A stretch of 64,000 nucleotides of DNA, taken from assembly GCA_035636095.1 (NCBI GenBank), contig DASPZU010000069.1, positions 9,199 through 73,198 on the forward strand, in the 5' to 3' direction. The translations under genes were made by a program, and so were the position numbers. This document shows positions 1 to 54,258 of this stretch, in pieces. Source of the stretch: Thermoanaerobaculia bacterium (lineage in GTDB: Bacteria; Acidobacteriota; Thermoanaerobaculia; Gp7-AA8). The notes below the pieces were generated by a model. It was given only the letters and a program-made list of their open reading frames with translations, was not told where the DNA came from and searched no databases. Positions within the stretch are counted from its first letter, which is position 1; every line of letters starts with the position of its first letter.

Positions 1-643
1 ACGGTGTCCAGATCGACATCACTCCGGTGCTCGAGCAGCTCGAACAGTGAGGGATCGCCGATCACACCGCCTTTCAGCGTTTCATACAGTCCGCTCAATT
101 TTTCGCGGGGCGGGAGTGTGGCCAGAACGGCGGTGTCAGAGAGGACTGCCCGCGGGGGAAAAAAGCTGCCCATCAGGTTTTTCCCGAGCTCGTGATTGAC
201 CGCGACCTTTCCTCCGATCGAGCTGTCGACCTGCGCCAGAAGCGTCGTCGGAACATGCACCAGATCGATTCCGCGCAGAAAAATCGAAGCCGCGAAGCCG
301 GCGGTGTCTCCGATCATGCCTCCGCCCACGACCACCGCCATCGAATCGCGTCTGCCTCCGCGATCGAGAAGCTGGGTGACGATGGTATTGACGGTCGCGA
401 GCGTCTTGTTGGCCTCCCCTTCCTCGATTGTCACGATCTCCGCTGATGGCTCAAACGAGGTGGCGACGCCCACTCCGAACCTCGTCAGCCCGCGCGAGGT
501 GATCACGAAGACCTTGCCGCGCGGCTTGACCAGTTTGCCGACCGAGTCGAGCAGACCGGGTCCGACGTAAACCGGGTGGTTCTGTACCGTCAGAAAGGGA
601 AGAGGGATGAGGGATGAGGGCTGATCGATTTTTTCATCCCTCA
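1..643 (-). CDS. aroB: 3-dehydroquinate synthase, N-terminal portion (gene runs off window start)
   Basis: Own minus-strand translation of 1-600 gives ...GGGMIGDTAGFAASIFLRGIDLVHVPTTLLAQVDSSIGGKVAVNHELGKNLMGSFFPP, the AroB signature. No stop before position 1. Start ambiguous (ATG at 643 lies inside repeat element; alternative start near 615-630). Confidence 0.8.
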
Positions 644-665
644 TCCCTCTGCCCTCATCCCTTCA
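596..665. repeat. heptamer-palindrome element family A copy 1: (GGGATGA)x3 - centre GGGCTGATCGATTTTTT - (TCATCCC)x4
   Basis: Direct reading. Right arm ccctcatccctctgccctcatcccttcaa identical (29 nt) to copy at 2441-2469. Contains stop codon of aspS. Confidence 0.9.
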
Positions 666-2436
666 ATCGAATTCCCAGCTCATCCAACTGTTTCGGGCCG
701 ACGCGCGAGGGCGCCTCGCTCATGAGGTCCTGCGCGCGCGCCGTTTTCGGGAAGGCGATGACGTCGCGCAGCGACTCGCCGCGGGCCATGAGCATCACGA
801 TGCGGTCGAATCCGAGGGCGATGCCGCCGTGGGGAGGAGCGCCGTAGCGGAAGGCTTCCAGAAGAAAACCGAATCGCTCCTTCGCTTCCGCTTCGTCGAT
901 ACCGAGCGCACGAAACATTCGCGACTGGATCTCGGGACGGTTGATCCGAATGGATCCGCCACCCAGCTCCAGGCCGTTGAGCACGACGTCGTAGGCGCGT
1001 GCCAGCGTTCCGCCGGGATCGCTTTCGAGTTTGTCGATATCCGACACTTTCGGCGACGTGAATGGATGATGACGCGCGAAATAGCGCCGCGTCTCTTCGT
1101 CCCATTCCAAGAGTGGAAAATCGACGACCCACAGGAAGTTCCACGTCTCGGGCTTGATCATCTGCTGCTCTCGGGCAACGCGCGTGCGAAGGCTTCCAAG
1201 GACATCCCACACGACTGTGGTTTTGCCGGCCACGATCAGCGCGAGATCACCTTCGTTCGCGCGAAGGGCGTGCCGGAGCACGTCGAAAGAAGAGTCGGTC
1301 AGGAACTTTTTGATCGAGGAACCGCGCTGCGCGTCGTATTTGACCCAGATCAGGCCTCCCGCGCCCAGCTTCTTGGCCTCTTCGGTCAGATCATCGATCT
1401 TCTTGCGCGAGAACGTCGCGCCGCCGGGCACGACAATGGCGCGGACGCTCTGCGCCTCGCGGAAGGCCGGAACCTCGATCGATTGCGCAGCGCTGCTGAT
1501 GTCGATCAGCTCCATCCCGAATCGCGTGTCGGGACGGTCGCTGCCGAAACGATCCATGGCCTGCTGCCATGGCAATCGCGGAAAGGGTGTGCTGACGGGG
1601 ATGTTGGCCAACGGGAAAATATATGCGAAAAGTCCTTCTATTAATTGATACACAAATTCTTCGTCAATGAAGGAGCTCTCGATGTCGACCTGCGTGAACT
1701 CCGGCTGACGGTCGCGCCGGAGGTCCTCGTCGCGAAAGCAGCGCACGATCTGGTAGTAGCGCTCCATGCCCGAGACCATCAGCAACTGCTTGAAGATCTG
1801 CGGCGACTGCGGCAGCGCGTAGAACATCCCGTGATGGATGCGGCTGGGTACGAGGTAGTCGCGCGCACCTTCGGGGGTCGATCGCGTCAGCATCGGCGTC
1901 TCGATCTCGAGGAAGCCTTGCCGGTGCATGTAATCGCGAACGCCGAACGCCACCTTGTCGCGCAGGGCGATGTTGTGCGTCAGCGACGGGCGTCGCAAAT
2001 CCAGATAGCGATACTTCAGCCTGAGCTCCTCGGCCGCCTCCGTTTGGTCTTCGATCGGAAAGGGCGGAGTCTCGGAGGTATTCAGAATCTCGATGCTTCT
2101 TCCGAGGACCTCGACATCCCCGGTCGGCAGCTTCGGATTGCGCGACTCTTCGGCGCGCGCGATGACATCGCCGTCGATGCGCACGACAAATTCCGCGCGA
2201 ACCTGCTTGGCCGCCGACAGCAGCGTCTCGCCTGCTCCGCGCGCCTTGTCGATGACGACCTGACAGAGGCCGCTCCGGTCGCGAAGATCGATGAACAGCA
2301 GATCGCCGAAGTCGCGCTGTTTCTGCACCCAGCCGGCCAGAGAGACCGAGCGGCCAACGTGTTCGGTGCGGAGCGTCCCGGCAGGAATTCGATTCATAGG
2401 GCTGAGGGATGAGGGATGAGGGATGAGAGTCTCCAT
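655..2436 (-). CDS. aspS: aspartyl-tRNA synthetase
   Basis: Translation matches AspRS throughout (LRTEHVGR..LAGWVQKQRDFGDLLFIDLRDRSG; class II motifs). N-terminal 13 codons are encoded by the repeat element, so the true start may be the internal Met at 2397. Confidence 0.93.
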   Translation of the reverse strand: METLIPHPSSLSPMNRIPAGTLRTEHVGRSVSLAGWVQKQRDFGDLLFIDLRDRSGLCQVVIDKARGAGETLLSAAKQVRAEFVVRIDGDVIARAEESRNPKLPTGDVEVLGRSIEILNTSETPPFPIEDQTEAAEELRLKYRYLDLRRPSLTHNIALRDKVAFGVRDYMHRQGFLEIETPMLTRSTPEGARDYLVPSRIHHGMFYALPQSPQIFKQLLMVSGMERYYQIVRCFRDEDLRRDRQPEFTQVDIESSFIDEEFVYQLIEGLFAYIFPLANIPVSTPFPRLPWQQAMDRFGSDRPDTRFGMELIDISSAAQSIEVPAFREAQSVRAIVVPGGATFSRKKIDDLTEEAKKLGAGGLIWVKYDAQRGSSIKKFLTDSSFDVLRHALRANEGDLALIVAGKTTVVWDVLGSLRTRVAREQQMIKPETWNFLWVVDFPLLEWDEETRRYFARHHPFTSPKVSDIDKLESDPGGTLARAYDVVLNGLELGGGSIRINRPEIQSRMFRALGIDEAEAKERFGFLLEAFRYGAPPHGGIALGFDRIVMLMARGESLRDVIAFPKTARAQDLMSEAPSRVGPKQLDELGIRLKG

Positions 2437-2469
2437 TCAGCCCTCATCCCTCTGCCCTCATCCCTTCAA
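2400..2469. repeat. heptamer-palindrome element family A copy 2: (GGGATGA)x3-4 - centre - (TCATCCC)x4
   Basis: Direct reading. Fills the whole aspS / gamma-CA intergenic space. Contains gamma-CA stop codon. Confidence 0.9.
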
Positions 2470-2970
2470 ATACTTCTCCTTGTATCCGACGTAGTTCTTC
2501 CACGACTGCTCGAGATGCGCCAGCTCGTCGGTGGTGAGCTGGCGTTTGATGCGCGCCGGCACACCGACCACCAGCGTCCGCGCCGGCACCTGCATCCCCT
2601 CCGGAACGAGCGCGCCCGCGCCGACCAGCGCCAGCTCCCCCACCAGAGCGCCGTCCAGCACGCGCGATCCCATCCCGATCAGCGCCCGCCGCTCGATGGT
2701 GCAGCCGTGCACCACCGCCGCGTGTCCGATGGTCACTTCCTCCGCGATCCGAACCGGATGCGTGCCTTGCGTGACGTGCAGCGTGCAGTTGTCCTGAATG
2801 TTCGTTCGCGCGCCGATGCGGATCGAGTGCACGTCGGCGCGGACGACGGCGCTGTACCAGATCGAGCAGTCATCGCCCACCTCGACATCGCCGATCACAG
2901 CCGCGGTCTCGGCCACGAACACACGAGCGCCGAAACGCGGCTCTTTCCCCTCGTAGGCGCGGACGATCAT
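2458..2970 (-). CDS. gamma-class carbonic anhydrase family / hexapeptide-repeat protein
   Basis: MIVRAYEGKEPRFGARVFVAETAAVIGDVEVGDDCSIWYSAVVRAD..ARTNIQDNCTLH is a typical gamma-CA (YrdA/PaaY) left-handed beta-helix. ORF track extends to 3123 but the upstream part is low-complexity. Start taken at Met 52. Confidence 0.8.
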   Translation of the reverse strand: MIVRAYEGKEPRFGARVFVAETAAVIGDVEVGDDCSIWYSAVVRADVHSIRIGARTNIQDNCTLHVTQGTHPVRIAEEVTIGHAAVVHGCTIERRALIGMGSRVLDGALVGELALVGAGALVPEGMQVPARTLVVGVPARIKRQLTTDELAHLEQSWKNYVGYKEKYLKG

Positions 2971-3004
2971 GCCGGCGGAGATTAGCACGATTAGAATCGT
3001 GGCC

Positions 3005-3685
3005 ATGGCGCACAAGATGCCGTTTCGATATCGCTCGCACGAGGTGTCGCGACTGGAGGCATTCAGCGATGTGATCTTCGGGTTCGCGCTGTCGCTGATC
3101 GTCGTCTCGCTGGAGGTTCCCAAGACTTACGATGAGCTGATCGAGACCGTGCGCGGCGTTCTCCCCTTCGGATTCTGCTTCCTGATTTTTATCGGACTGT
3201 GGCTGGCGCACCATGAATTCTTCCGACGCTACGGACTGCAGGACAAGATCACCATGGCGTTGAACATCACGCTGCTCTTCCTGATCCTGTTCTACGTCTA
3301 TCCGCTGAAGTTCATGTTCGTGTTGATGGCCAAGGGGATCTACGGTCACCCGGTGGCCACCTCACTTGATCAGGCTCGGATCTTGTTCACGATCTACGGA
3401 GCGGGCTTCGCGGCGGTGAACGGGCTGCTGGCGGCGATGTATTGGCACGCGGAACGTCAGGCCGACAAGCTCGATCTCAACGCGGTCGAGCGGCTCGACA
3501 CGCGCGAGAGCATCTACGATTTCATCTGCACCGGCGCGTTCGGCGTTCTCTCGATCATCCTGGCGTATACCGCGATCCAATTCGCAGGTCGGGTTTACTT
3601 TCTTCTCGCGATTCCGAAAACCGCTGTGCCGTGGATCATGGGCGTGAGGAGAAGCAAACTCGAGGAAGCGTTGTCGCCCCTGTAA
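3005..3685 (+). CDS. TMEM175/DUF1211-family membrane protein (putative K+ channel)
   Basis: RLEAFSDVIFGFALSLIVVSLEV motif and a second RxxxFxD-like TM repeat. About 6 TM helices. Start uncertain (3005 or 3017). Confidence 0.6.
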   Translation: MAHKMPFRYRSHEVSRLEAFSDVIFGFALSLIVVSLEVPKTYDELIETVRGVLPFGFCFLIFIGLWLAHHEFFRRYGLQDKITMALNITLLFLILFYVYPLKFMFVLMAKGIYGHPVATSLDQARILFTIYGAGFAAVNGLLAAMYWHAERQADKLDLNAVERLDTRESIYDFICTGAFGVLSIILAYTAIQFAGRVYFLLAIPKTAVPWIMGVRRSKLEEALSPL

Positions 3686-8406: not shown

Positions 8407-8492
8407 ATTAAGAATTTCGAATTTCAAATGAAAAATTGAGAATGGGCTGATCTTTCATTTTTCATTCTTAATTTGAAATTTGAAATTTCATA
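8407..8492. repeat. heptamer-palindrome element family B copy 1 (AT-rich): (GAATTTC/AAATTTC)n - AAATGAAAAATTGAGA - centre GGGCTGATC - mirror
   Basis: Direct reading. Roughly 25% GC island in a 65% GC genome. Shares the GGGCTGATC centre with family A copy 1. Confidence 0.9.
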
Positions 8493-8498
8493 TTTCGC

Positions 8499-9767
8499 AT
8501 GGCAGATACGAAAAACGAGAAGCTCGTCCGCGCGGTCGGCCTTTGGGGCCTGGTGGCGATGTGCATCAACGCCGTCATCGGCAGCGGCGTGTTCCTTCTG
8601 CCGTCCGAGTCCTACAGACTCCTCGGTCCGTTTTCACTGTGGGCGCCGCTGATCTTCGCGCTTCCGGTTTTCATTCTGGCGCTGTGCTTTGCGGAAGCGG
8701 CCAGCCATTTCAGCGAGCCTGGCGGTGCGTACCTCTACGCACGGACAGCGTTCGGCGATTTCATCGGATTCGAGACTGGATGGATGAACTGGCTGGCGCG
8801 CGTCACCTCGCTGGCGTCGCTGTCGAACGGATTCGTGGTCTCGCTGGCGCGATTCTATCCACCGCTCGGCTCCGGCGTGCTGCGTTGGAGCCTCATCATC
8901 GGCTCGCTGCTCATCCTCGGAATCATCCACTTCGTCGGCGTCAAGTACGGTGCAGTTTCGATCTACGTCTTTACGTTCGGCAAGGTCGTGCCGCTGGTGG
9001 GATTCATCATCATCGCCTTGATTCTGTTTCGCCACAATCCGATTCCGGGGTCGCTGCATCTTCCGGGGCGGGGGACTGACTGGGGCGGCGCTGCCCTGTT
9101 CATGCTCTTCGCCTACGCTGGTTTCGAAAACCTCGGCGTTCCGGCGGGCGAGTACAAAGATCCGCGACGCGATCTTCCAAAAGCGCTGCTGATCGGACTG
9201 TTGATCATCGGCGTGATCTACGTTCTGGCGCAGCTCGGCGCCATGTCGGCGCTGACGAATCTCGGCGACAGCAAGACCCCGATCGCCGACGCAGCTGCGG
9301 CGCTGGTCGGCACGTGGGGCGCGGTCATTATCACGCTCGGCGCGGTGCTGTCGATGGCGGGAACGAATTCGGGCACCGTGCTCGAAGGCTCGCGCATGCT
9401 GTACGCGCTCTCGCTCGATCGCAAGTTGGGGCCGATCAGCTACGTGCATCCAAAGTTTCGGACGCCGTCCTACGCCATCGTCGTGCACGTCATCGTCGCG
9501 ACCGTCCTGGCGCTGATCAGCACCTTCGCAAACATGGCACTTTTTTCGGCCGGCGCGCGCCTGACGACGTATCTCTTCACCTGCGCCGCGCTTCCGCGTT
9601 TGCGGAAAATCAATCAAGGATTTCGAACGCCGGGGCTGTGGATGCCGATCCTCGGCACGCTGATCTCGATCGCCCTCGTGGTGAGCCTGGATAGGCAGAA
9701 GCTGATCGCCGGCGCGGTCGCTTTAGCCGTCGGCGCGGCGATCTGGCTCGGGACGCGCCGCAGTTAG
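8499..9767 (+). CDS. APC-family amino acid permease
   Basis: 12-TM permease with AVIGSGVFLLPSE signature. Confidence 0.85.
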   Translation: MADTKNEKLVRAVGLWGLVAMCINAVIGSGVFLLPSESYRLLGPFSLWAPLIFALPVFILALCFAEAASHFSEPGGAYLYARTAFGDFIGFETGWMNWLARVTSLASLSNGFVVSLARFYPPLGSGVLRWSLIIGSLLILGIIHFVGVKYGAVSIYVFTFGKVVPLVGFIIIALILFRHNPIPGSLHLPGRGTDWGGAALFMLFAYAGFENLGVPAGEYKDPRRDLPKALLIGLLIIGVIYVLAQLGAMSALTNLGDSKTPIADAAAALVGTWGAVIITLGAVLSMAGTNSGTVLEGSRMLYALSLDRKLGPISYVHPKFRTPSYAIVVHVIVATVLALISTFANMALFSAGARLTTYLFTCAALPRLRKINQGFRTPGLWMPILGTLISIALVVSLDRQKLIAGAVALAVGAAIWLGTRRS

Positions 9768-20460: not shown

Positions 20461-20514
20461 CGTTGTCGGTTGTCGGTGTTCGGTTGTCGACAACTGACAA
20501 CCGACAACTGACAA
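20461..20514. repeat. heptamer-palindrome element family D: (GTTGTCG/G)x4 abutting (CAACTGA/CAACCGA)x4, centred on GTCGAC
   Basis: Direct reading. Loopless 54-bp palindrome between convergent genes. Confidence 0.85.
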
Positions 20515-20516
20515 CG

Positions 20517-21170
20517 TCAAGGCTCCGGTCCAAAGCTCTCCACGATCACTTCCGCGGTGTCCATCCCGTTCGCGCGCAAGGCCGACTGCACGCGCGCCAG
20601 GAAGCCATCGAATCCGGCCGTCATCTTCAGCGAGCCTTCGAGTGTTTTTCGATTGCGTCCGATGAGCATCTCGATCTTGCCGCTTTCGTGAACGATCGCG
20701 CCCGTGCGCGCGAGCGGATCGAAATCGCCCGCGTACAGAATGTGCCGCTGATCGGGCTCATACAGCACGGTGATCTTGCGGCGATCGCCGACGGCCAGCA
20801 TGTGCAGCACGATGCTCCGAATCGGCGCGATTCCGGTGTCCCCGGCCAGGAAAACCACCGGACGGCCATCGGCCTGCGGTAGGACGAAGTCGCCGTAGGG
20901 CCCGTCGATGGAGACATCCGCGCCGGGCTCGAGCCTCTTGAGAGCTTCGCCCCCCTTGCCTGCTCCGACGCGGACGCATAGCTGCACGGCTTCCGGTAGT
21001 TGCGGCGCCGACGCGATGGTGTACGCACGCGAAACCCCTTCCGGAAACCCGAAGTTCACCCATTGCCCGGGCTCGAAGTGGAAATCGCGATCGTTCAACG
21101 CCACCGTCAACTGAACGACCGAGGGGGCGAGCTCTTCGATCTCGGTGACGGTCGCGGTGTGCTCCGGCAT
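20517..21170 (-). CDS. ferredoxin-NADP reductase-like FAD/NAD(P)-binding oxidoreductase
   Basis: RAYTIAS...GKGGEAL...FLAGDTGIAP motifs. Confidence 0.7.
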   Translation of the reverse strand: MPEHTATVTEIEELAPSVVQLTVALNDRDFHFEPGQWVNFGFPEGVSRAYTIASAPQLPEAVQLCVRVGAGKGGEALKRLEPGADVSIDGPYGDFVLPQADGRPVVFLAGDTGIAPIRSIVLHMLAVGDRRKITVLYEPDQRHILYAGDFDPLARTGAIVHESGKIEMLIGRNRKTLEGSLKMTAGFDGFLARVQSALRANGMDTAEVIVESFGPEP

Positions 21171-22481: not shown

Positions 22482-23180
22482 CTAGTACTTGATCCGCTGC
22501 AGTTCCTGCTTCGCGGACGCGGCGGCAGTCGAGTAGGGATATTTGCGGATACATTCCTCGAACGTCTTCCGCGCCATTCCCAGGTCGCTGATTTTCTCGT
22601 AGGTAACGCCGAGTTTGAGCATCGCGTCGGGGGCTTTGTTCTCGGTCGCGAACTCTTTGGTGACCCGTTCGTAGAAACGCATCGCTTTGTTGTAGTCGCC
22701 GGCAGCAAAGTAGGTTTCGCCGATCCAGAAAAGGGCGTTGTCGGCGAGCTGGCCGGTCGGGTCGCCGTCGAGCACCTGCTGGAACATCGCGCGCGATTCG
22801 GCATGCTTTCCCTGGCTGAACAGCATCAGCGCGCGGCGGTAAGTTTCGGCGACGTCGGCGACGTGGAGCGCCGGCGACCTCGCCGGCGCGGTCGTGGAAG
22901 TCGCCGCCGGGGTCGGCGGCGCTCCACCTTCCAACTTCGAGATGCGGGCATTGAGGACGTCGAGGCGGTCGAGCAGCTCGGTGAGCGACGTCTGAAGGTC
23001 GACGAGCTGTTTGTCGACCGTAGGAGAGGAAGCCGGCTGGGGCGGCGGGACGAGTGACGGCTCATCCGCTGGCTGCTTGGAGGAAGCGCATGACAAAGTC
23101 AGAAGGCAGAAGGCAGAAGGCAGAAGGAAGCGGAGCGCGGCTCTTACTGCTGCCTTCTGCTTTCTGCCTTCTGCCTTCAT
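22482..23180 (-). CDS. ybgF: Tol-Pal system YbgF/CpoB-like lipoprotein (coiled coil + TPR). Signal peptide encoded by a palindromic repeat
   Basis: ATG at 23180 overlaps bamD TGA (ATGA coupling). N-terminus MKAEGRKQKAAVRAALRFLLPSAFCLLTLSC (lipobox LTLSC). C-terminal TPR with GETYFAAGDYNKAMRFYE. Confidence 0.7.
   Translation of the reverse strand: MKAEGRKQKAAVRAALRFLLPSAFCLLTLSCASSKQPADEPSLVPPPQPASSPTVDKQLVDLQTSLTELLDRLDVLNARISKLEGGAPPTPAATSTTAPARSPALHVADVAETYRRALMLFSQGKHAESRAMFQQVLDGDPTGQLADNALFWIGETYFAAGDYNKAMRFYERVTKEFATENKAPDAMLKLGVTYEKISDLGMARKTFEECIRKYPYSTAAASAKQELQRIKY
23099..23178. repeat. heptamer-palindrome element family C copy 1: (CAGAAGG)x4 - centre - (CCTTCTG)x4, located inside the 5' coding region of the ybgF-like gene
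   Basis: Direct reading. Confidence 0.9.
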
Positions 23181-23965
23181 GCCGTCTTCATCTGATCGAG
23201 CCACCGTTTCGCCCGGTCGGCGTAGTTGCTCTTGGGAAACTCCGAGATCACGCGCTCGAAGTAGAGTCGCGCTTCCGCTTTTCTACCCAGTCCCGCCAGC
23301 GCCGTGCCCATGTCGTAGAAAACGGCATCGCGCTCGCGATAGTTCGGATAGGTGTCGATGATGTAATTCAATCGCTGGATCGCCGAGGGGTAGCTGCGCC
23401 GCTTCATGTAAAAGCGCGCGATGATGTGCTCATGTTTCGCGAGACGATCCAGCGCGTCCTGCAGCCGCTTATCCGCTTCGGGACGCAAGGCGCTGTTCGG
23501 GAAGGTGTGGATCATGTCGTTGAACTTCTCGACCGCTTCGCGAGTTTTCTGCTGATCGCGGTCGGGCTTTTCCATCTGTTTGTACGCCACCATCGCGATC
23601 TGCAGCATGGCGTAATCGGCGCGGTCGCTTCCGGGATAGCGATTGATGAAGTCGCGGTATTTGTACTGCGCTTCGACGAGATTCACCGGATCGCCCTGCG
23701 CGTAGTACGTGTCGGCAACCCGCAGAAGAGCGCGGCGTCCCAGCGGATCGTTGGGATGGTTTTCGTAGATGTAGCTGTAGTAGGTCCGCGCTCGCGGGTA
23801 CCGCTTTTTCCCGAATTGCTCCTCGCCGCGGTCGAAAAGCTGCTCTTTGCTGAGCTTCGTCAGCTCAGGATCGACGGCCGGCCGGATCGGACGTGGTCCG
23901 CCGTGACGGCAGGCTGCGAGCGACAGCGCGATCGCTGCCAGGAGAACGATTCCAGTTCGTTTCAA
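23177..23965 (-). CDS. bamD: outer membrane protein assembly factor BamD (YfiO) lipoprotein
   Basis: Lipobox LAAC. TPR-like repeats typical of BamD. Confidence 0.8.
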   Translation of the reverse strand: MKRTGIVLLAAIALSLAACRHGGPRPIRPAVDPELTKLSKEQLFDRGEEQFGKKRYPRARTYYSYIYENHPNDPLGRRALLRVADTYYAQGDPVNLVEAQYKYRDFINRYPGSDRADYAMLQIAMVAYKQMEKPDRDQQKTREAVEKFNDMIHTFPNSALRPEADKRLQDALDRLAKHEHIIARFYMKRRSYPSAIQRLNYIIDTYPNYRERDAVFYDMGTALAGLGRKAEARLYFERVISEFPKSNYADRAKRWLDQMKTA

Positions 23966-30910: not shown

Positions 30911-30988
30911 TTGAAGGCAGAAGGCAGAAAGCAGAAGTCAGAAGGGCTAACCGTTCTACTTCTGCCTTCCGCCTTCTGCCTGCTGCTT
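30911..30988. repeat. heptamer-palindrome element family C copy 2: (GAAGGCA)n - GGGCTAACCG - (TGCCTTC)n, intergenic 3' of pyk
   Basis: Direct reading. Confidence 0.85.
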
Positions 30989-38530: not shown

Positions 38531-40299
<1,769 letters not shown>

Positions 40300-44402: not shown

Positions 44403-44448
44403 GGTCGGGGAAGCTCCTTCGAGGAAATCGACGAATCGTAGCATACGA

Positions 44449-44520
44449 GTGCTTAGTGCTGAGTCCTGAGTGCTGAGTCCCGCCCACTCAGGACTCAGGA
44501 CTCAGCACTCAGGACTCAGA
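44449..44520. repeat. heptamer-palindrome element family E copy 1: (CTGAGTC/CTGAGTG)x3 - CCGCCC - (ACTCAGG/ACTCAGC)x4
   Basis: Direct reading. Contains lptE TGA stop. Lies in the metK leader. Confidence 0.9.
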
Positions 44521-45025
44521 ATCCCTCGAGCAGATTCGTCACCAGCGTCTCCGCGAAGCGCTGCGCGATCTCGGCGATGGCGCGTGTTTCCTGGTCGAAG
44601 GCGTCCGTCGATTCGAGGTTGACCTGGTAGTTTTCGGCGAAACGGTATTGATCGTTCTTCCACAGCACCTTGTCTTCGTTGCGGTGGTCGACCAGCTCGA
44701 TCTTGGCGGTGATCGAGATCTGATACTGCGTCGCGCGCCCTTGCGGATTGAAGGCGATCGGAAAGATCCCGAAGCTGTCGATGGAGCCGCGCAGGATGGC
44801 GTCGGCGCTGTTGGGATTGCTGACCAGCTTCAGGCGGCCGCGCGCGACCACCTCGTCGGCCACCGATTGCGTGACCAGCTGCTCCAGGCCCACGCGCGTG
44901 GTGCGATTGACAAAGGCCGGTACCTCGACCGTGTGAATCTTCGGATCGAGAGAATTGCTGCGGCCCACGAGCGCATAGCCGCACGCGGACAGCATCGCGA
45001 GTGGCGCGAGGAGCGCTTTTTTCAC
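44516..45025 (-). CDS. lptE: LPS-assembly lipoprotein LptE-like
   Basis: Lipobox LSAC followed by GYAL (as in CGWHLR of LptE). Size and beta-rich pattern fit. Confidence 0.5.
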   Translation of the reverse strand: MKKALLAPLAMLSACGYALVGRSNSLDPKIHTVEVPAFVNRTTRVGLEQLVTQSVADEVVARGRLKLVSNPNSADAILRGSIDSFGIFPIAFNPQGRATQYQISITAKIELVDHRNEDKVLWKNDQYRFAENYQVNLESTDAFDQETRAIAEIAQRFAETLVTNLLEGF

Positions 45026-47217: not shown

Positions 47218-50200
47218 TTAGTTCGTCGGATGCTTCTGGATGTTTCCGTTGCTCAGCGTATGGCAGCCGGTATCCATCATCAGGGTGCAGGAAGTGGGCG
47301 CATTGGGATCCTGGTCGCTCGGGAGGCGCTGAATGCGGATCCTGTCCGAATTTGCTCCAGGCTCTGTGTTGTCTTCGACTGTAACCCTGTAGATGCAGCC
47401 CGTCTTCTTATCCCTCACCTTGAACGTGATGCAGTTGGTGCAGCTGGGGCAGTCGCCGTTATTGCCGCAAGGAGTTACCAGTCCGATGACTGGCCCATTG
47501 ATGTGGAACCCCGATGTGTGGTCGAGGCCGTTGAACTCGCCATCGGTGGGCCCGTTCGAGGGTGTCCTGAAGTTGAAACCGAAGCTCCACTTGTTGCCGT
47601 TGGTGGCGATGAATTGACCGCCGCCGGTGTACTTAACGGCCGTGGGGGTACCGGTGCAGATGCCGCCGCTACAGGTGTCGTTGCTGGTGCAGGCATCCCC
47701 GTCGTTGCACGGAGCGGTGTTGTTGTTGTGCACGCAGCCCGTCGCTGGGTTGCACGAGTCGTCGGTACAGACGTTGTTGTCGTTGCAGTTGGGCGGCGAC
47801 CCGCCCACGCACGAGCCGAGGGCGCAGGTGTCGTTGGTGGTACAGGCGTTCCCGTCGCTGCACGGGGCGGTGTTGTTGGTGTGCGCGCATCCCGTGGCCG
47901 GGTTGCACGAGTCGTCGGTGCAGACGTTGCCGTCATCGCAGTTGGGCGCAGGCCCGCCTATGCAGGTTCCACCACTACAGGTGTCATTGGTCGTACAGGC
48001 GTTGCCGTCGCTACAAGGATTGGTGTTGTTGGTGTGCACGCAGCCCGTGACCGGGTTACAACTGTCATCGGTGCAGACATTGTTGTCGTTGCAATTGGCA
48101 GCCGGCCCGCCGACGCATGCGCCCGCGGCGCAAGTGTCATTAGTCGTACAGGCGTTCCCGTCGTTGCAGGGGCCGGTGTTGTTGGTGTGCACGCAGCCTG
48201 TGGCCGGAACGCAGCTGTCGTCGGTGCAGACGTTGCCGTCATCGCAGTTGGGCGCCGGCCCGCCGACACAGGTTCCACCACTACATGCGTCATTGGTCGT
48301 ACAGGCGTTTCCGTCGCTACACGGGTTGGTGTTGTTGGTGTGCACGCAACCCGTCTGTGTGTTGCAGGTGTCGGTCGTACAGACGTTGCCGTCGTCGCAG
48401 TTGGGCGCCGGCCCGCCGACGCACGTTCCGTTGGCGCAGGTGTCGCTCGTGGTGCAGGCGTTCCCGTCATTGCACGGGTTGGTGTTGTTGATATGTGTAC
48501 ATCCGCTGGCCGGGTTGCAGGCGTCGGTCGTACAGACATTCCCGTCGTCGCAGTTAGGCGCAGGCCCGCCGACGCAGGTTCCACCACTACAGGTGTCATT
48601 GGTGGTACAGGCGTTCCCGTCGCTACAGGGATTGGTGTTATTGGTGTGCACGCAGCCCGTGGCCGGGTTACAACTGTCGTCGGTGCAGACATTGCCGTCG
48701 TCGCAGTTGGGCGCAGGCCCGCCTACGCACGCGCCACCCGCGCAGGTGTCATTGGTAGTACAAGCGTTCCCGTCGCTGCAGGGGTTGGTGTTGTTGACAT
48801 GCGTACACCCACTGGCGGGGTTGCAGCCGTCGGTCGTACAGACATTCCCGTCGTCGCAGTTAGGCGCAGGCCCGCCGACGCACGCTCCCGCGGCGCAAGT
48901 GTCGTTGGTCGTACAGGCGTTCCCGTCGTTGCAGGGGGCGGTGTTGTTAATGTGCACGCAGCCCGTGGCCGGGTTACACGAGTCGTCGGTGCAGACGTTA
49001 TTGTCATTGCAGTTGGGAGCTGGCCCGCCGACACACGTTCCACCCGCGCAGGTGTCGTTCGTGGTACAGGCGTTCCCGTCGTCGCAGGAGGCGGTGTTGT
49101 TGGTGTGCGTGCATCCGCTCGCCGGATCGCACGCATCGTCGGTACAGACGTTGTTGTCGTTGCAGTTAGGCGCTGGCCCGCCCACGCACGTCCCACCCGA
49201 ACACGTGTCATTGGTGGTGCAGGCGTTCCCGTCGCTACAGGAGGCGGTGTTGTTAGTGTGCACGCAGCCTGTGGCCGGATTACAGCTGTCGTCAGTGCAG
49301 ATGTTGCCGTCGTCGCAGTTGGGCGCAGGCCCTCCTACGCACGTGCCACCCGCACAGGTGTCATTGGTGGTACAGGCGTTCCCGTCGTTACAGGGGGCGG
49401 TGTTGTTGGTGTGCACGCAGCCTGTGGCGGGGTTACAGCTGTCGTCGGTGCAGACATTGTTGTCGTTGCAGTTAGGTGCAGGCCCTCCAACGCAGGCTCC
49501 ACCGCTACAGGTGTCATTGGTGGTACAGGCGTTCCCGTCGTTGCAGGGGGCGGTATTGTTGGTGTGGAAGCATCCGCTCGTCGGGTCGCAAGCATCATCG
49601 GTACAGACGTTGCCGTCGTCGCAGTTGAGTGGGGCGCCGGGGTTACAGGTCCCCCCACCGCACACCTCATGGCCATTGCACACCGTGTTGTCATCACATG
49701 AGGCGGTATTGTTGGTGTGTACGCACCCTGTCGCGGGATTGCAGCTGTCGTCAGTGCAGACGTTGTTGTCGTTGCAATTGACCGCGCTGCCCTCGCAGAA
49801 CCCCAGGGAGTTACAGGTGTCGTTGGTGGTGCAGGCGTTGCCGTCGTTGCAGGAAGTCCCAGTGGCCGGAGTGTGGCGACAGGCATGCAAAGTCGTATCG
49901 CATGTATCGGTGGTACACGGGTTGCCGTCGCTACACTGCGAGGCGTCGGTGCATCCCTGAAAAAGGATACAGTCCGAAGGGTCGGAGTTTGGTATCTCGG
50001 ACGGATAGGAGCACGCGTCAACCAACGTGGCGCTCGTGCCCGCCCCGAAGTCGGCAAGATCGACCGAGCAAGTGGCGACTGTGTCCGAGGGGTAGGCGTC
50101 ATCGGGTGGGAAGGGATCGGTGTTCTGCTGCGACACCGAGCACGTGGTGTTCTTGCCTGGCCCCGGCATACAGGCACCACCGCCGAGGCAGCCCGATTCG

Positions 50201-53739: not shown

Positions 53740-53755
53740 GAGGATCGCGAAGTAT

Positions 53756-53829
53756 AAGTCCTGAGTCCTGAGTGCTGAGTCCTGAGCACGCCCACCCACT
53801 CAGGACTCAGGACACAGGACTCAGGACTC
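53756..53829. repeat. heptamer-palindrome element family E copy 2: (TCCTGAG)x4 - CACGCCCACCC - (ACTCAGG)x4
   Basis: Direct reading. Contains dtd TGA stop. Lies in the leuS leader. Confidence 0.9.
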
Positions 53830-54258
53830 GTAGACGAACGTCACCGGCCCGTCATTTTCGAGCGAGACGATCATCATTTCGCGAAAGCGTCCGGTCTTGA
53901 CGGGAATTCCTGTGGCGCCAAGCTCGGCGACGAAGACGTCGAACATCGCGCGCGCCTTCTCCGGCTCCTCGGCATTGTCGAAGCTGGGGCGACGTCCGCG
54001 CGCCAGCGAGCCCGCCAGAGTGAATTGAGAAACAGCCAGGATCGATCCGCCGATTTCTGCGACGTCGCGATTCATCTTGCCGGCGTCGTCGCTGAAGACT
54101 CGAAGCTCGCGGATCTTGCGCGCGGCATCCCGCATGGTCTGCTCGCCATCTCCTTTCTCCACTGCCGCCAGCACCAGGAGTCCCGCGCCGATCTCCGAGA
54201 TGACTTCGGCCGCCACCGAGACGGACGCGCGCCGCACGCGCTGAATGACACATCGCAC
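53821..54258 (-). CDS. dtd: D-aminoacyl-tRNA deacylase
   Basis: MRCVIQRVRRASVSV...SQFTL..GRRPSF is canonical Dtd. Confidence 0.9.
   Translation of the reverse strand: MRCVIQRVRRASVSVAAEVISEIGAGLLVLAAVEKGDGEQTMRDAARKIRELRVFSDDAGKMNRDVAEIGGSILAVSQFTLAGSLARGRRPSFDNAEEPEKARAMFDVFVAELGATGIPVKTGRFREMMIVSLENDGPVTFVYES

What the first reader, a model, noticed from the sequence alone, without database searches (positions are those of the whole stretch)
23099..23180. A heptamer-repeat palindrome lies inside a coding region and encodes a lipoprotein signal peptide, one arm for the basic n-region and the mirror arm for the hydrophobic h-region
The ybgF/cpoB-like gene starts at an ATG (23180) that overlaps the bamD TGA in an ATGA arrangement, so this start is well supported. 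Its first 30 codons are M-K-A-E-G-R-K-Q-K-A-A-V-R-A-A-L-R-F-L-L-P-S-A-F-C-L-L-T-L-S-C.
- On the minus strand the GAAGGCA repeats of one arm translate to KAEGRKQKA.
- The inverted CCTTCTG repeats of the other arm translate to LLPSAFCLL.
- These are followed by a lipobox (LTLSC).
- A second copy of the same repeat family (30911-30988) is purely intergenic, 3' of pyk. The element is therefore mobile or repeated, and here it has apparently been captured as, or inserted to form, a functional signal peptide.
Basis: partly seen in the sequence, partly recalled or inferred. Interest (0 to 1): 0.7.

Follow-up and report, generated by a model that had tools for sequence, protein, structure and literature searches.

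The report
Repeat hairpin encoding a signal peptide
A small repeated DNA hairpin built from 7-base units, which in these soil bacteria normally sits right on the stop codon of a gene, landed where two genes overlap and now encodes most of the export signal of the second gene, and the same thing has happened in several other exported proteins.

Summary
Window 23094-23182 holds 4 x GAAGGCA, a 23-nt centre and 4 x CCTTCTG. On the minus strand it encodes residues 1-30 of a YbgF/CpoB lipoprotein, whose ATG overlaps the bamD TGA.

About 115 of 120 orthologues have a short native signal peptide (MKRLLGLALLLASC|ASS). Only the window and three relatives (72-83% identical) carry the palindrome, joined at the same lipobox Cys. 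So it is an old insertion that replaced the n- and h-regions.

- **The gene is still functional:** dN/dS is 0.11-0.20.
- **The hairpin arms are constrained beyond the peptide:** they show 0 synonymous changes where about 9 are expected.

The element belongs to a dispersed class of period-7 hairpins with many different units, abundant in Thermoanaerobaculia.

- **Position:** members sit on stop codons (77 of 125 GAAGGCA copies, against 7 by chance), usually as T|GAAGGCA.
- **Mobility:** the pyk copy is a clean presence/absence polymorphism.

GAAGGCA has no stop in any of the six frames. In every frame it encodes a basic repeat followed by a hydrophobic repeat. The same family forms the N-termini of other exported proteins (PBP4-like, rhodanese, HlyD, GGT and others).

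Precedents exist (Rickettsia RPEs, Yersinia RU-2), so this is a new variant of a known kind.

The parts
23177..23965 (-). bamD (YfiO-family outer-membrane lipoprotein). Its TGA stop (23179-23177) is the T|GA of the first GAAGGCA unit.
   Evidence: Pfam YfiO E = 1.1e-34. ORF. Synteny with L001-L008.
22482..23180 (-). ybgF/cpoB-like gene, 232 aa, with its ATG at 23180-23178 in an ATGA overlap with bamD.
   Evidence: 100% identical NCBI protein named tol-pal system protein YbgF; 1224 homologues. TPR Pfam hits. dN/dS 0.11-0.20.
23088..23180 (-). Signal-peptide coding region, 31 codons up to and including the lipobox Cys (TGC, 23090-23088). The n-region MKAEGRKQKAAVRAALR has net charge +5. The h-region is FLLPSAFCLLTLS.
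   Evidence: The Cys and downstream sequence align with orthologues.
23151..23178 (-). Arm 1: GAAGGCA GAAGGCA GAAAGCA GAAGGCA. Encodes the basic KAEGRKQKA stretch.
23128..23150 (-). Central, loop-proximal part of the element (GCAGTAAGAGCCGCGCTCCGCTT). It is the most variable part among relatives.
   Evidence: Six differences in 24 nt against L004, compared with one in the 66 nt of the arms.
23100..23127 (-). Arm 2: 4 x CCTTCTG. Encodes the hydrophobic LLPSAFCLL stretch.
23088..23099 (-). ACTTTGTCATGC (T-L-S-C). This is the junction and lipobox, shared by all filled alleles. It pairs with GCAUGA at the foot of the RNA stem.
30911..30988 (.). Second GAAGGCA-family copy. Its outer TGA (30992-30990 on the minus strand) is the pyk stop codon. 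Absent from syntenic relatives.
593..657 (.). Hairpin of the same class with unit AGGGATG/TCATCCC. It supplies the last codons and the TGA of the gene at 655-2436(-).
2395..2459 (.). Hairpin of the same class with unit AGGGATG. It supplies the stop of the gene at 2458-3123(-).
20461..20517 (.). Hairpin of the same class with unit GTTGTCG/GACAACT. It abuts the stop of the FAD-binding gene at 20517-21170(-).
44447..44522 (.). Hairpin of the same class with unit GAGTGCT/ACTCAGG. It overlaps the stop of the gene at 44516-45025(-).
53753..53831 (.). Hairpin of the same class with unit AGTCCTG/ACTCAGG. It overlaps the stop of the gene at 53821-54258(-).

Best explanation
The palindrome is one copy of a dispersed, apparently mobile family of hairpins built from tandem heptamers. 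Its consensus is (A)TGAAGGCAG(AAGGCAG)n - centre - (CTGCCTT)nCTGCCTTCA(T). The family is abundant in Thermoanaerobaculia.

**Where family members sit.** They characteristically lie with their outer TGA serving as the stop codon of the upstream gene.

**What happened here (inferred).** The bamD stop overlapped the cpoB start (ATGA). The element therefore entered the cpoB signal-peptide coding region. It replaced about 11 ancestral codons (MKR plus most of the h-region) with about 28 element codons, a net gain of 51 nt. The lipobox Cys and the mature protein were kept.

**Why the product still looks like a signal peptide (shown from sequence).**
- 3 x 7 nt equals 7 codons, so all three frames encode the same cyclic 7-residue repeat.
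- GAAGGCA and its complement have no stop in any frame.
- The purine arm gives K/A/E/G/R/R/Q and the complementary arm gives L/P/S/A/F/C/L.
- On either strand the purine arm comes first.
- Translation therefore always gives a positively charged n-region followed by a hydrophobic h-region.

**Inferred consequences.**
- The chimeric peptide directs export of CpoB, probably as a lipoprotein.
- The -62 kcal/mol stem buries the AUG. cpoB translation should therefore depend on ribosomes terminating at the overlapping bamD UGA.
- The stem may also protect or attenuate the bamD 3' end.
- The arms are kept at the nucleotide level, either by selection on the hairpin or by conversion from sister copies.
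For: **The short signal peptide is ancestral and the insertion is shared.**
- About 115 of 120 orthologues have a 14-16-residue lipoprotein signal peptide.
- Only P0001, P0002, P0003 and P0005 carry the long form.
- The Cys and the mature part align.
- The DNA alignment shows all filled alleles sharing the junction CTTCTGACTTTGT(C/T)(A/C)TGC.

**The gene is still functional.**
- The mature region has dN/dS 0.11 (against L004), 0.13 (L125) and 0.20 (L001), at pS 0.46-0.54.
- Only in-frame indels separate the filled alleles.

**Nucleotide-level constraint on the arms.** Across 16.3 synonymous sites there are 0 synonymous differences, against about 8.8 expected. The centre has 6 differences in 24 nt.

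**Hairpin strength.** The filled alleles fold at -62, -70 and -50 kcal/mol (z -5.9, -7.8, -4.3). The empty sites fold at -25 to -35 kcal/mol with z near 0.

**Family and mobility.**
- The element termini are ATGAAGG...CCTTCAT.
- The pyk copy is absent from four relatives, and its TGA replaces the ancestral TAG/TAA.

**Stop-codon anchoring.**
- 77 of 125 GAAGGCA hairpins lie against a coding-like stop codon, against 6.9 +/- 2.7 at random. The modal arrangement is T|GAAGGCA, seen in 27 cases.
- For hairpins with other units the figure is 31 of 51, against 2.9 +/- 1.7.

**Recurrence.**
- Hairpin-encoded N-termini occur on rhodanese, S13/PBP4, HlyD, GGT, CrtC and DUF255 proteins.
- About 20 of 120 PBP4 orthologues carry hairpins of at least three unit types at the same site. 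This was confirmed in the DNA.

**Signal-peptide features.**
Against: - **No experimental or predictor evidence for export.** No SignalP/LipoP tool was available.
- **Non-canonical lipobox.** T-L-S-C fails the classic L-[ASTVI]-[GAS]-C pattern. The L001/P0005 allele has F at -1 and a net n-region charge of only +1.
- **Insertion event not reconstructed.** A simple insertion of the roughly 84-nt element does not give the observed +51 nt, so an accompanying deletion of about 33 nt must be assumed.
- **Monophyly unresolved.** Filled lineages group together in 50% of bootstraps, against 49.6% for the alternative. The single-origin claim rests on the shared junction.
- **No mobility machinery identified.** No transposase, target-site duplication or insertion mechanism was found.
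- **Arm conservation is ambiguous.** It could reflect gene conversion rather than function.
- **A very stable stem over the AUG.** One would naively expect it to block translation. Coupling is an inference.
Confidence: 0.8

Rival explanations
1. The insertion is recent and disruptive. Under this reading cpoB in this genome is a pseudogene, or is mis-started by annotation.
For: Orthologues have an unrelated, shorter native signal peptide. The stem buries the start codon.
Against: - The same in-frame insertion is present in four lineages separated by pS about 0.5.
- The mature region is under purifying selection, dN/dS 0.11-0.20.
- All filled alleles are full length without stops.
Confidence: 0.03
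2. The real start lies downstream of the palindrome. The element would then be only an intercistronic hairpin, and the protein would use another signal or none.
For: For cytoplasmic genes such as mutL (L061) and a deoxynucleoside kinase (L015), the hairpin lies in the 5' UTR. The mechanical ORF merely extends through it because the unit has no stops.
Against: - The only in-frame start-type codon between arm 2 and the Cys is the TTG (Leu29) two codons before the Cys. Starting there would leave no n- or h-region.
- After the Cys there is no hydrophobic segment.
- All orthologues are lipoproteins with the Cys at the aligned position.
- YbgF/CpoB is periplasmic (established knowledge of the Tol-Pal system).
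Confidence: 0.04
3. The palindrome arose in place. The naturally purine-rich n-region and pyrimidine-rich h-region codons of a signal peptide would have been amplified by slippage into heptamers. Intergenic copies would then be derived from signal peptides.
For: Lys, Arg and Glu codons are complementary to Leu, Ser and Phe codons, so signal peptides are weakly self-complementary. Different heptamer units occupy the same PBP4 site in different lineages, which could reflect local turnover.
Against: - Most copies are intergenic at gene 3' ends, with the same termini and the same inner stem (GAAGTGAGAA/TTCTCACTTC).
- The pyk copy is a clean insertion.
- Empty cpoB sites show no incipient heptamers and fold no better than shuffled sequence.
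- Hairpins whose units contain stops cannot derive from coding sequence.
Confidence: 0.07
4. The element-encoded segment is an uncleaved signal anchor, or is cleaved by signal peptidase I. CpoB would then be exported but not lipidated in this clade.
For: The lipobox is non-canonical (T-L-S-C). In L001 it is T-L-F-C, with F at -1, which is not accepted by the usual lipobox rules. E. coli CpoB is a soluble periplasmic protein (own knowledge).
Against: - The Cys is strictly kept in all four filled alleles and in the empty-site orthologues examined.
- T-L-S-C satisfies the PROSITE-type lipoprotein rule.
Confidence: 0.2
5. The nucleotide-level conservation of the arms comes from gene conversion with the many sister copies, or from self-correction within the palindrome. 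It would not reflect selection for a hairpin function in this mRNA.
For: There are hundreds of near-identical arms per genome lineage. The more distant L001 allele has decayed arms (about 9 of 66 nt changed, -50 kcal/mol), yet it still encodes a hydrophobic h-region.
Against: No test run here separates the two readings. Hairpins of this class are positioned non-randomly at stop codons, which suggests the structure matters there.
Confidence: 0.35

Closest known systems
Rickettsia palindromic elements (RPEs; Ogata et al. 2000, 2002, as summarised in PMC10969869)
   Same: Dispersed palindromic repeats inserted in frame into functional protein-coding genes. They add an element-encoded peptide while the host gene stays functional.
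   Different: RPEs are about 150 bp, are not built from heptamers and insert at internal surface positions of proteins. They are not reported to form signal peptides or to anchor on stop codons.
Enterobacterial RU-2 (MITE-like) element in Yersinia pestis YPO1552 (Delihas 2007, PMC2759123)
   Same: [quoted passage not shown] Orthologues elsewhere have unrelated signal peptides.
   Different: It is a 168-bp element with no heptamer structure. The reported fusions are a handful of mostly small or hypothetical ORFs. There is no evidence of purifying selection on a conserved host gene, no stop-codon anchoring and no frame independence.
Xanthomonas GGGAATC heptamer repeats (Rehm et al. 2015, PMC4692102)
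   Same: Intergenic tandem heptamers, mostly four units. 70-75 cases per genome are convergent pairs able to form stem-loops, which is the same 4 x 7 / inverted 4 x 7 architecture.
   Different: One G-rich unit, interpreted as G-quadruplex-forming. No coding use is described. The organisms are Gammaproteobacteria.
TAACTGA heptamer direct repeats of Beggiatoaceae and Cyanobacteria (PMC4679880) and cyanobacterial STRR heptamers (own knowledge)
   Same: Period-7 repeats at gene boundaries. The forward orientation gives stops in all three frames and sometimes overlaps the upstream stop codon. The reverse orientation is translatable as a 7-residue repeat.
   Different: These are direct repeats, not hairpins (only one inverted case was reported), and lie mostly just upstream of start codons. 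No signal-peptide use is described.
REP/BIME elements and REPINs
   Same: Short, abundant extragenic palindromes at gene 3' ends. In E. coli, REPs close to a stop codon influence translation and mRNA stability (Liang, Rudd and Deutscher 2015; own knowledge, not retrieved here).
   Different: REPs are 20-40 bp with a GTAG/CGTC head, have no heptamer periodicity and are associated with RAYT transposases. None of these features was seen or could be tested here.

Membership tests
Bacterial lipoprotein (SPase II) signal peptide | Positively charged n-region at the N-terminus | tested here: met
   MKAEGRKQKAAVRAALR has net charge +5.
Bacterial lipoprotein (SPase II) signal peptide | Uncharged hydrophobic h-region of about 7-22 residues | tested here: met
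   FLLPSAFCLLTLS is 13 residues with mean Kyte-Doolittle 1.92. Native orthologues score 2.4-2.8.
Bacterial lipoprotein (SPase II) signal peptide | Lipobox L-[ASTVI]-[GAS]-C, with the Cys at the position conserved in orthologues | tested here: inconclusive
   T-L-S-C fails the classic pattern but fits the PROSITE-type rule. The Cys aligns with the orthologue lipobox Cys. The L001 allele has F at -1.
Bacterial lipoprotein (SPase II) signal peptide | Actual export, cleavage and lipidation | not testable with these tools
   Needs proteomics, reporter fusions or globomycin assays.
YbgF/CpoB (Tol-Pal associated TPR protein) | N-terminal coiled-coil region plus C-terminal TPR domain, with homology to annotated YbgF | tested here: met
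   TPR Pfam hits. 1224 homologues, many named tol-pal system protein YbgF. Conserved synteny bamD-cpoB.
In-frame palindromic coding insertion (RPE-like) | Member of a dispersed palindromic repeat family | tested here: met
In-frame palindromic coding insertion (RPE-like) | Inserted in frame in a gene that stays under purifying selection, with empty-site orthologues | tested here: met
Heptamer-repeat hairpins (Xanthomonas-type inverted heptamer pairs) | Tandem 7-nt units (about 4) followed closely by the inverted array | tested here: met
   Across about 1 Mb there are 175 period-7 hairpins, against 0-16 for periods 5, 6 and 8-10.
Heptamer-repeat hairpins (Xanthomonas-type inverted heptamer pairs) | G-rich unit GGGAATC with G-quadruplex potential | tested here: not met
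   The unit is GAAGGCA, with no G-runs. Units vary widely between copies.
MITE | Target-site duplication flanking the element | tested here: not met
   The filled/empty comparison at the pyk site shows no duplication. The element replaces the stop codon and about 5-8 nt. This is a single case.
MITE | Terminal inverted repeats matching an autonomous IS with a transposase | not tested
   The whole element is a palindrome. No parent IS was searched for, and only 64 kb of this genome is available.
REP / REPIN | GTAG or CGTC tetranucleotide head and 20-40 bp imperfect palindrome | tested here: not met
   The termini read (A)TGAAGG...CCTTCA(T). The element is about 75-90 bp with heptamer periodicity.
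REP / REPIN | Associated RAYT (Y1 transposase) gene in the genome | not tested
   A whole genome was not available.
Intrinsic (Rho-independent) terminator | Short GC-rich stem, 3-8 nt loop and a U-tract | tested here: not met
   The terminator scan does not call the heptamer hairpins as whole elements, and no T-run follows them.
Any Rfam RNA family | Score at or above the family gathering threshold | tested here: not met
   No hits at gathering threshold over the whole window. Only sub-threshold hits to eukaryotic miRNA-precursor models, i.e. a generic long hairpin.

The most novel reading that the evidence does not exclude
Period-7 hairpins would be a distinct, cross-phylum class of mobile or templated elements that integrate precisely at stop codons. 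Each end would carry a built-in ATGA stop/start junction. The stop-free GAAGGCA-type members would act as portable 'start codon + n-region + h-region' cassettes. They would repeatedly replace or create export signals, working in any frame because 3 x 7 nt equals 7 codons, while also imposing a translation-coupling hairpin between cistrons.
Probability: 0.4. Interest if true: 0.85.

Novelty: new variant of a known kind. Interest (0 to 1): 0.68.

Why it matters
**For protein evolution.** It shows a concrete route by which selfish or structural repeat DNA becomes an essential protein part. A palindrome whose two arms are complementary automatically encodes a charged segment followed by a hydrophobic one. 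This follows from how the genetic code pairs hydrophilic codons with hydrophobic complements. The heptamer period makes the outcome independent of reading frame.

**For cell-envelope biology.** Here the hairpin has rewritten the export signal of a conserved envelope protein (CpoB). It has done the same in at least half a dozen other periplasmic proteins in the same bacterial class.

**For the element class.** Heptamer hairpins are strongly anchored on stop codons in several phyla, and their mechanism of spread and their function are unknown.

**For annotation.**
- Gene callers produce spurious small ORFs on these elements.
- They may mis-start genes next to them.
- Signal-peptide predictors may not be trained on such N-termini.

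Tried and rejected
- **Peptide census.** A search of the 5.8-billion-protein database with a consensus hairpin peptide returned only 17 small hypothetical ORFs of 49-70 aa. It was useless for counting captured genes. It shows only that gene callers call ORFs on intergenic copies.
- **Metagenome scan with the cpoB junction** CTTCTGACTTTGTYMTGCGC. Of 58 hits, 57 carried no GAAGGCA repeat beside the match and were mostly from human-gut assemblies, so they look like chance matches. The one real allele (L152) differs from L004 at 4 of 696 nt, so it adds no independent lineage.
- **Phylogeny of 8 concatenated syntenic proteins** (2335 aa). It could not resolve whether the filled lineages are monophyletic (50% against 49.6% of bootstraps).
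- **Rfam.** Nothing at gathering threshold. The sub-threshold miRNA-precursor hits are a generic-hairpin artefact.
- **Intrinsic-terminator reading.** Rejected: no U-tract, and the elements are not called by the scan.
- **First repeat detector.** It allowed at most one mismatch per 14 comparisons and missed most hairpins. It was loosened.
- **Pseudogene and downstream-start readings.** Rejected.
- **Citation for stop-proximal REPs.** I could not retrieve the paper on REPs near stop codons. It is cited as my own knowledge only.
Full report
**1. The observation**

On the minus strand the window reads ATG AAG GCA GAA GGC AGA AAG CAG AAG GCA GCA GTA AGA GCC GCG CTC CGC TTC CTT CTG CCT TCT GCC TTC TGC CTT CTG ACT TTG TCA TGC, from 23180 to 23088.

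The anatomy is as follows.
- Four GAAGGCA-type units occupy 23178-23151.
- A 23-nt centre occupies 23150-23128.
- Four CCTTCTG units occupy 23127-23100.
- Then comes ACTTTGTCA and the Cys codon.
- The arms are 30-35 nt at 89-93% complementarity.

The feature is not chance.
- The 14-mer with up to 2 mismatches occurs 13 times in the window, against 0.44 expected.
- The RNA folds at -62.2 kcal/mol, z = -5.9.

The bamD stop (Pfam YfiO, E = 1.1e-34) overlaps the ATG as ATGA. The second copy at 30911-30988 is real.

**2. What the gene's relatives show**

The 232-aa product is identical to an NCBI protein named tol-pal system protein YbgF, from a Thermoanaerobaculia (Acidobacteriota) MAG.

Of the 120 best homologues, about 115 begin with a short lipoprotein signal peptide, such as MKRLLGLALLLASC|ASSQPK or MKRSLVFGLLLVSC|ASSKQK. 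Only the window protein and P0002, P0003 and P0005 (82, 83 and 72% identical) begin MKAEGR(K/R)QKA...LLP(S/A)A(F/L)(C/S)LLTL(S/F)C|AS.

Syntenic DNA was fetched for three filled lineages and five empty lineages.
- All empty sites read GC ATGA AG CGT CTC CTC ... TCG TGC.
- In the filled alleles everything between ATGAAG and the Cys codon is replaced, a net gain of 51 nt.
- All filled alleles share the right-hand junction CTTCTGACTTTGT(C/T)(A/C)TGC.

The short signal peptide is therefore ancestral. The palindrome is a single old insertion that overwrote the n-region and most of the h-region.

A concatenated tree of eight neighbouring proteins cannot resolve whether the filled lineages form a clade (50% against 49.6% of bootstraps). 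The single-origin claim rests on the shared junction.

**3. Is the gene still working?**

Between the filled lineages, synonymous sites in the mature region are nearly saturated (pS 0.46-0.54). Even so, dN/dS is 0.11-0.20, the same range as between empty-site relatives at 0.09-0.13. All indels among the filled alleles are in frame.

The only in-frame start-type codon between the second arm and the Cys is the TTG two codons before the Cys. Starting there would leave no n- or h-region. Nothing hydrophobic follows the Cys.

The pseudogene and downstream-start readings are therefore rejected.

The N-terminus has the following features.
- The n-region has net charge +5.
- The h-region is 13 uncharged residues with mean Kyte-Doolittle 1.92.
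- The lipobox is T-L-S-C. It fits the PROSITE-type rule but not the classic L-[ASTVI]-[GAS]-C.
- One relative has F at -1.

Export is well supported by inference. Lipidation is less certain.

**4. The hairpin itself is constrained**

Between the window and L004 or L125, the 66 nt of the two arms contain 16.3 synonymous sites. They show 0 synonymous differences, where the rest of the gene predicts about 8.8 (0.46^16 is about 3e-6). They show one non-synonymous change. The 24-nt centre has six differences.

| Alleles | Fold energy (kcal/mol) | z-score |
|---|---|---|
| Filled (window, L004, L001) | -62, -70, -50 | -5.9, -7.8, -4.3 |
| Empty sites | -25 to -35 | about 0 |

The stem foot pairs GCAUGA with UCAUGC, which buries the AUG.

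Either the structure is selected, or the arms are homogenised against sister copies. I could not separate these two readings. The most distant allele (L001) has partly decayed arms while keeping a hydrophobic h-region.

**5. What the element is**

The window contains at least five more hairpins with the same 4 x 7 / centre / 4 x 7 plan but different units: AGGGATG (two copies), GTTGTCG, GAGTGCT and AGTCCTG. None is found for periods 5, 6 or 8-11. Across about 1 Mb of related DNA I found 175 period-7 hairpins, against 0-16 for the other periods tested (5, 6, 8-10).

- Most are Thermoanaerobaculia.
- Others are Verrucomicrobia, Planctomycetes, Blastocatellia, Gemmatimonadaceae, Chloroflexi and Latescibacterota.

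In Thermoanaerobaculia the copies end in ATGAAGGCAG...CTGCCTTCAT, with a common inner stem GAAGTGAGAA/TTCTCACTTC.

Mobility is shown by the pyk copy. It is absent from four syntenic relatives. Its TGA sits exactly where their TAG or TAA stop was, and there is no target-site duplication.

**6. Stop-codon anchoring**

| Hairpin set | With a stop codon at a foot | Expected at random |
|---|---|---|
| GAAGGCA unit | 77 of 125 | 6.9 +/- 2.7 |
| Other units | 31 of 51 | 2.9 +/- 1.7 |

'At a foot' means that the stop codon of a coding-like ORF of at least 100 codons lies within -12 to +25 nt of a hairpin foot.

The modal arrangement, in 27 cases, is T|GAAGGCA. In it the element's own TGA is the stop, exactly as for bamD and pyk.

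Many units contain TGA or TAA (GGGATGA, CCTGAGT, GGTTAAC). These give a stop in every frame and visibly supply the last codons and the stop of window genes.

The hairpins are not canonical intrinsic terminators. They match no Rfam family.

The bamD-cpoB copy therefore sits in the family's normal position. What is special is that bamD's stop overlapped cpoB's start.

**7. Why translation of this palindrome gives a signal peptide**

This part follows directly from the sequence (peptides listed).
- Three heptamers are 21 nt, or seven codons. All three frames therefore read the same cyclic seven-residue repeat.
- GAAGGCA gives K-A-E-G-R-R-Q.
- Its complement gives L-P-S-A-F-C-L.
- Neither has a stop in any frame.
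- Because the element is a palindrome, the purine arm comes first on both strands.
- The termini read ATGAAGG. This contains ATG and, one base later, TGA, which is a ready-made ATGA stop/start junction.

**8. It is recurrent**

Among the fetched loci, the hairpin ATG opens genes for the following proteins.

| Protein | Loci | N-terminal junction |
|---|---|---|
| Rhodanese lipoprotein | L040, L086 | ...FCLLPSAFCLLLASC\|KTVG |
| Peptidase S13/PBP4 lipoprotein | L028, L035 | ...LLLTAC\|TTT |
| HlyD-type adaptor | L059 | |
| Gamma-glutamyltranspeptidase | L123 | ...LLPFAAQA\|QITAKS |
| CrtC/AttH lipocalin | L074 | |
| DUF255 thioredoxin | L052 | |
| TPR proteins | L087, L110 | |

In contrast, next to cytoplasmic genes (mutL, a deoxynucleoside kinase) the hairpin is only upstream of the real start.

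For the PBP4-like gene, most of 120 orthologues have a short signal peptide. About 20 carry hairpin-encoded N-termini of several unit types:
- KAEGRRQ/LLPSAFC;
- NAERRTQ/FCVLRSA;
- NEEFRMK/FFILHSK.

The DNA confirms hairpins with units GAACGCA (-77 kcal/mol) and GAATGAA/GAATTTC (-56 kcal/mol). They sit on the ATGA overlap with the upstream gene. An empty allele has an overlapping TTG start instead.

**9. Mechanism**

Shown:
- insertion into the ancestral signal peptide;
- retention under purifying selection;
- nucleotide-level conservation of the arms;
- family membership, mobility and stop-codon anchoring.

Inferred:
- The chimeric peptide exports CpoB.
- cpoB translation depends on ribosomes terminating at the overlapping bamD UGA, because they would open the stem foot. 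No good Shine-Dalgarno sequence precedes the ATG in either filled or empty alleles.
- The stem may stabilise or attenuate the bamD 3' end. This is by analogy with stop-proximal REPs in E. coli (own knowledge; I could not retrieve the paper).

Unknown:
- how the elements spread;
- why the period is 7;
- how +51 nt arose from an element of about 84 nt. An accompanying deletion of about 33 nt must be assumed.

**10. Comparison with what is known**

- In-frame palindromic repeats in functional genes are known from Rickettsia (RPEs; PMC10969869).
- Four-unit heptamer arrays in convergent pairs were described in Xanthomonas (PMC4692102).
- Heptamer direct repeats with stops in all frames at gene boundaries were described in Beggiatoaceae and cyanobacteria (PMC4679880).

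I found no description of the following points:
- heptamer hairpins in Thermoanaerobaculia;
- stop-codon anchoring of such hairpins;
- their repeated use as signal peptides of conserved envelope proteins;
- the frame-independence argument.

Hence the rating is a new variant of a known kind.

**11. Verdict**

Both the observation and the interpretation are supported. The finding is a clear example of a wider and apparently undescribed pattern. Interest is 0.68.

Noticed in passing
window 593-657 and 2395-2459: Two AGGGATG-unit hairpins bracket one 593-codon ORF (655-2436, minus strand). They share an identical 29-nt end, TTGAAGGGATGAGGGCAGAGGGATGAGGG. Each supplies the last codons (L-K-G) and the TGA stop of a different upstream gene.
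   Followed up: partly
window 8420-8500 and 38533-38625: Two AT-rich period-7 palindromes (units CAAATTT/AAATTTG). They share AATTTCAAATGAAAAATTGAGA and sit in a GC-rich genome just upstream of genes at 8499 and 38651. The hairpin detector did not call them, and they were not studied further.
   Followed up: no
L127 1501-1610, L128 1501-1600, L028 and L035 (PBP4-like gene start): The same gene boundary carries hairpins of at least three different heptamer units in different lineages: GAACGCA, GAATGAA/GAATTTC and GAAGGCA. Each encodes the signal-peptide n- and h-regions. This means either repeated independent insertion or concerted change of the unit on both arms.
   Followed up: partly
FAD-binding gene 3' end: window 20461-20517, L007 2689-2771, L006 12670-12754. 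CNNM/era junction: L006 15229-15304, L008 15330-15416.: Orthologous intergenic sites hold hairpins with different units in different genomes: GTTGTCG against GAATGTT, and GGCAGAA against GGATTTT. This suggests insertion hot spots or turnover.
   Followed up: no
L009, L017, L018, L025, L033, L039, L042, L070, L071 and others: GAAGGCA hairpins with the same architecture occur in MAGs labelled Verrucomicrobia, Latescibacterota, Planctomycetia/Gemmataceae, Anaerolineales/Chloroflexi, Gemmatimonadaceae and 'Clostridia'. This could be convergence, horizontal spread or binning errors.
   Followed up: no
L001/L002 10001-10093 (P0005): The most divergent filled cpoB allele has an extra ATG codon (MMKAEG...), a 6-nt in-frame deletion in the centre, F at lipobox position -1 and an n-region net charge of only +1. 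Its maturation may differ from the others.
   Followed up: partly
window 47666-49853: A large tandem array with a 153-nt period (12.8 copies; also scored as 459 nt x 4.8), about 76-78% matches. Probably a repeat-domain protein gene. Not examined.
   Followed up: no
P0121-P0137: Public annotations contain small 'hypothetical proteins' of 49-70 aa that are simply translations of intergenic GAAGGCA hairpins starting at the element's own ATG. They are likely annotation artefacts, although translation coupled to the upstream gene through the ATGA end is not excluded.
   Followed up: no
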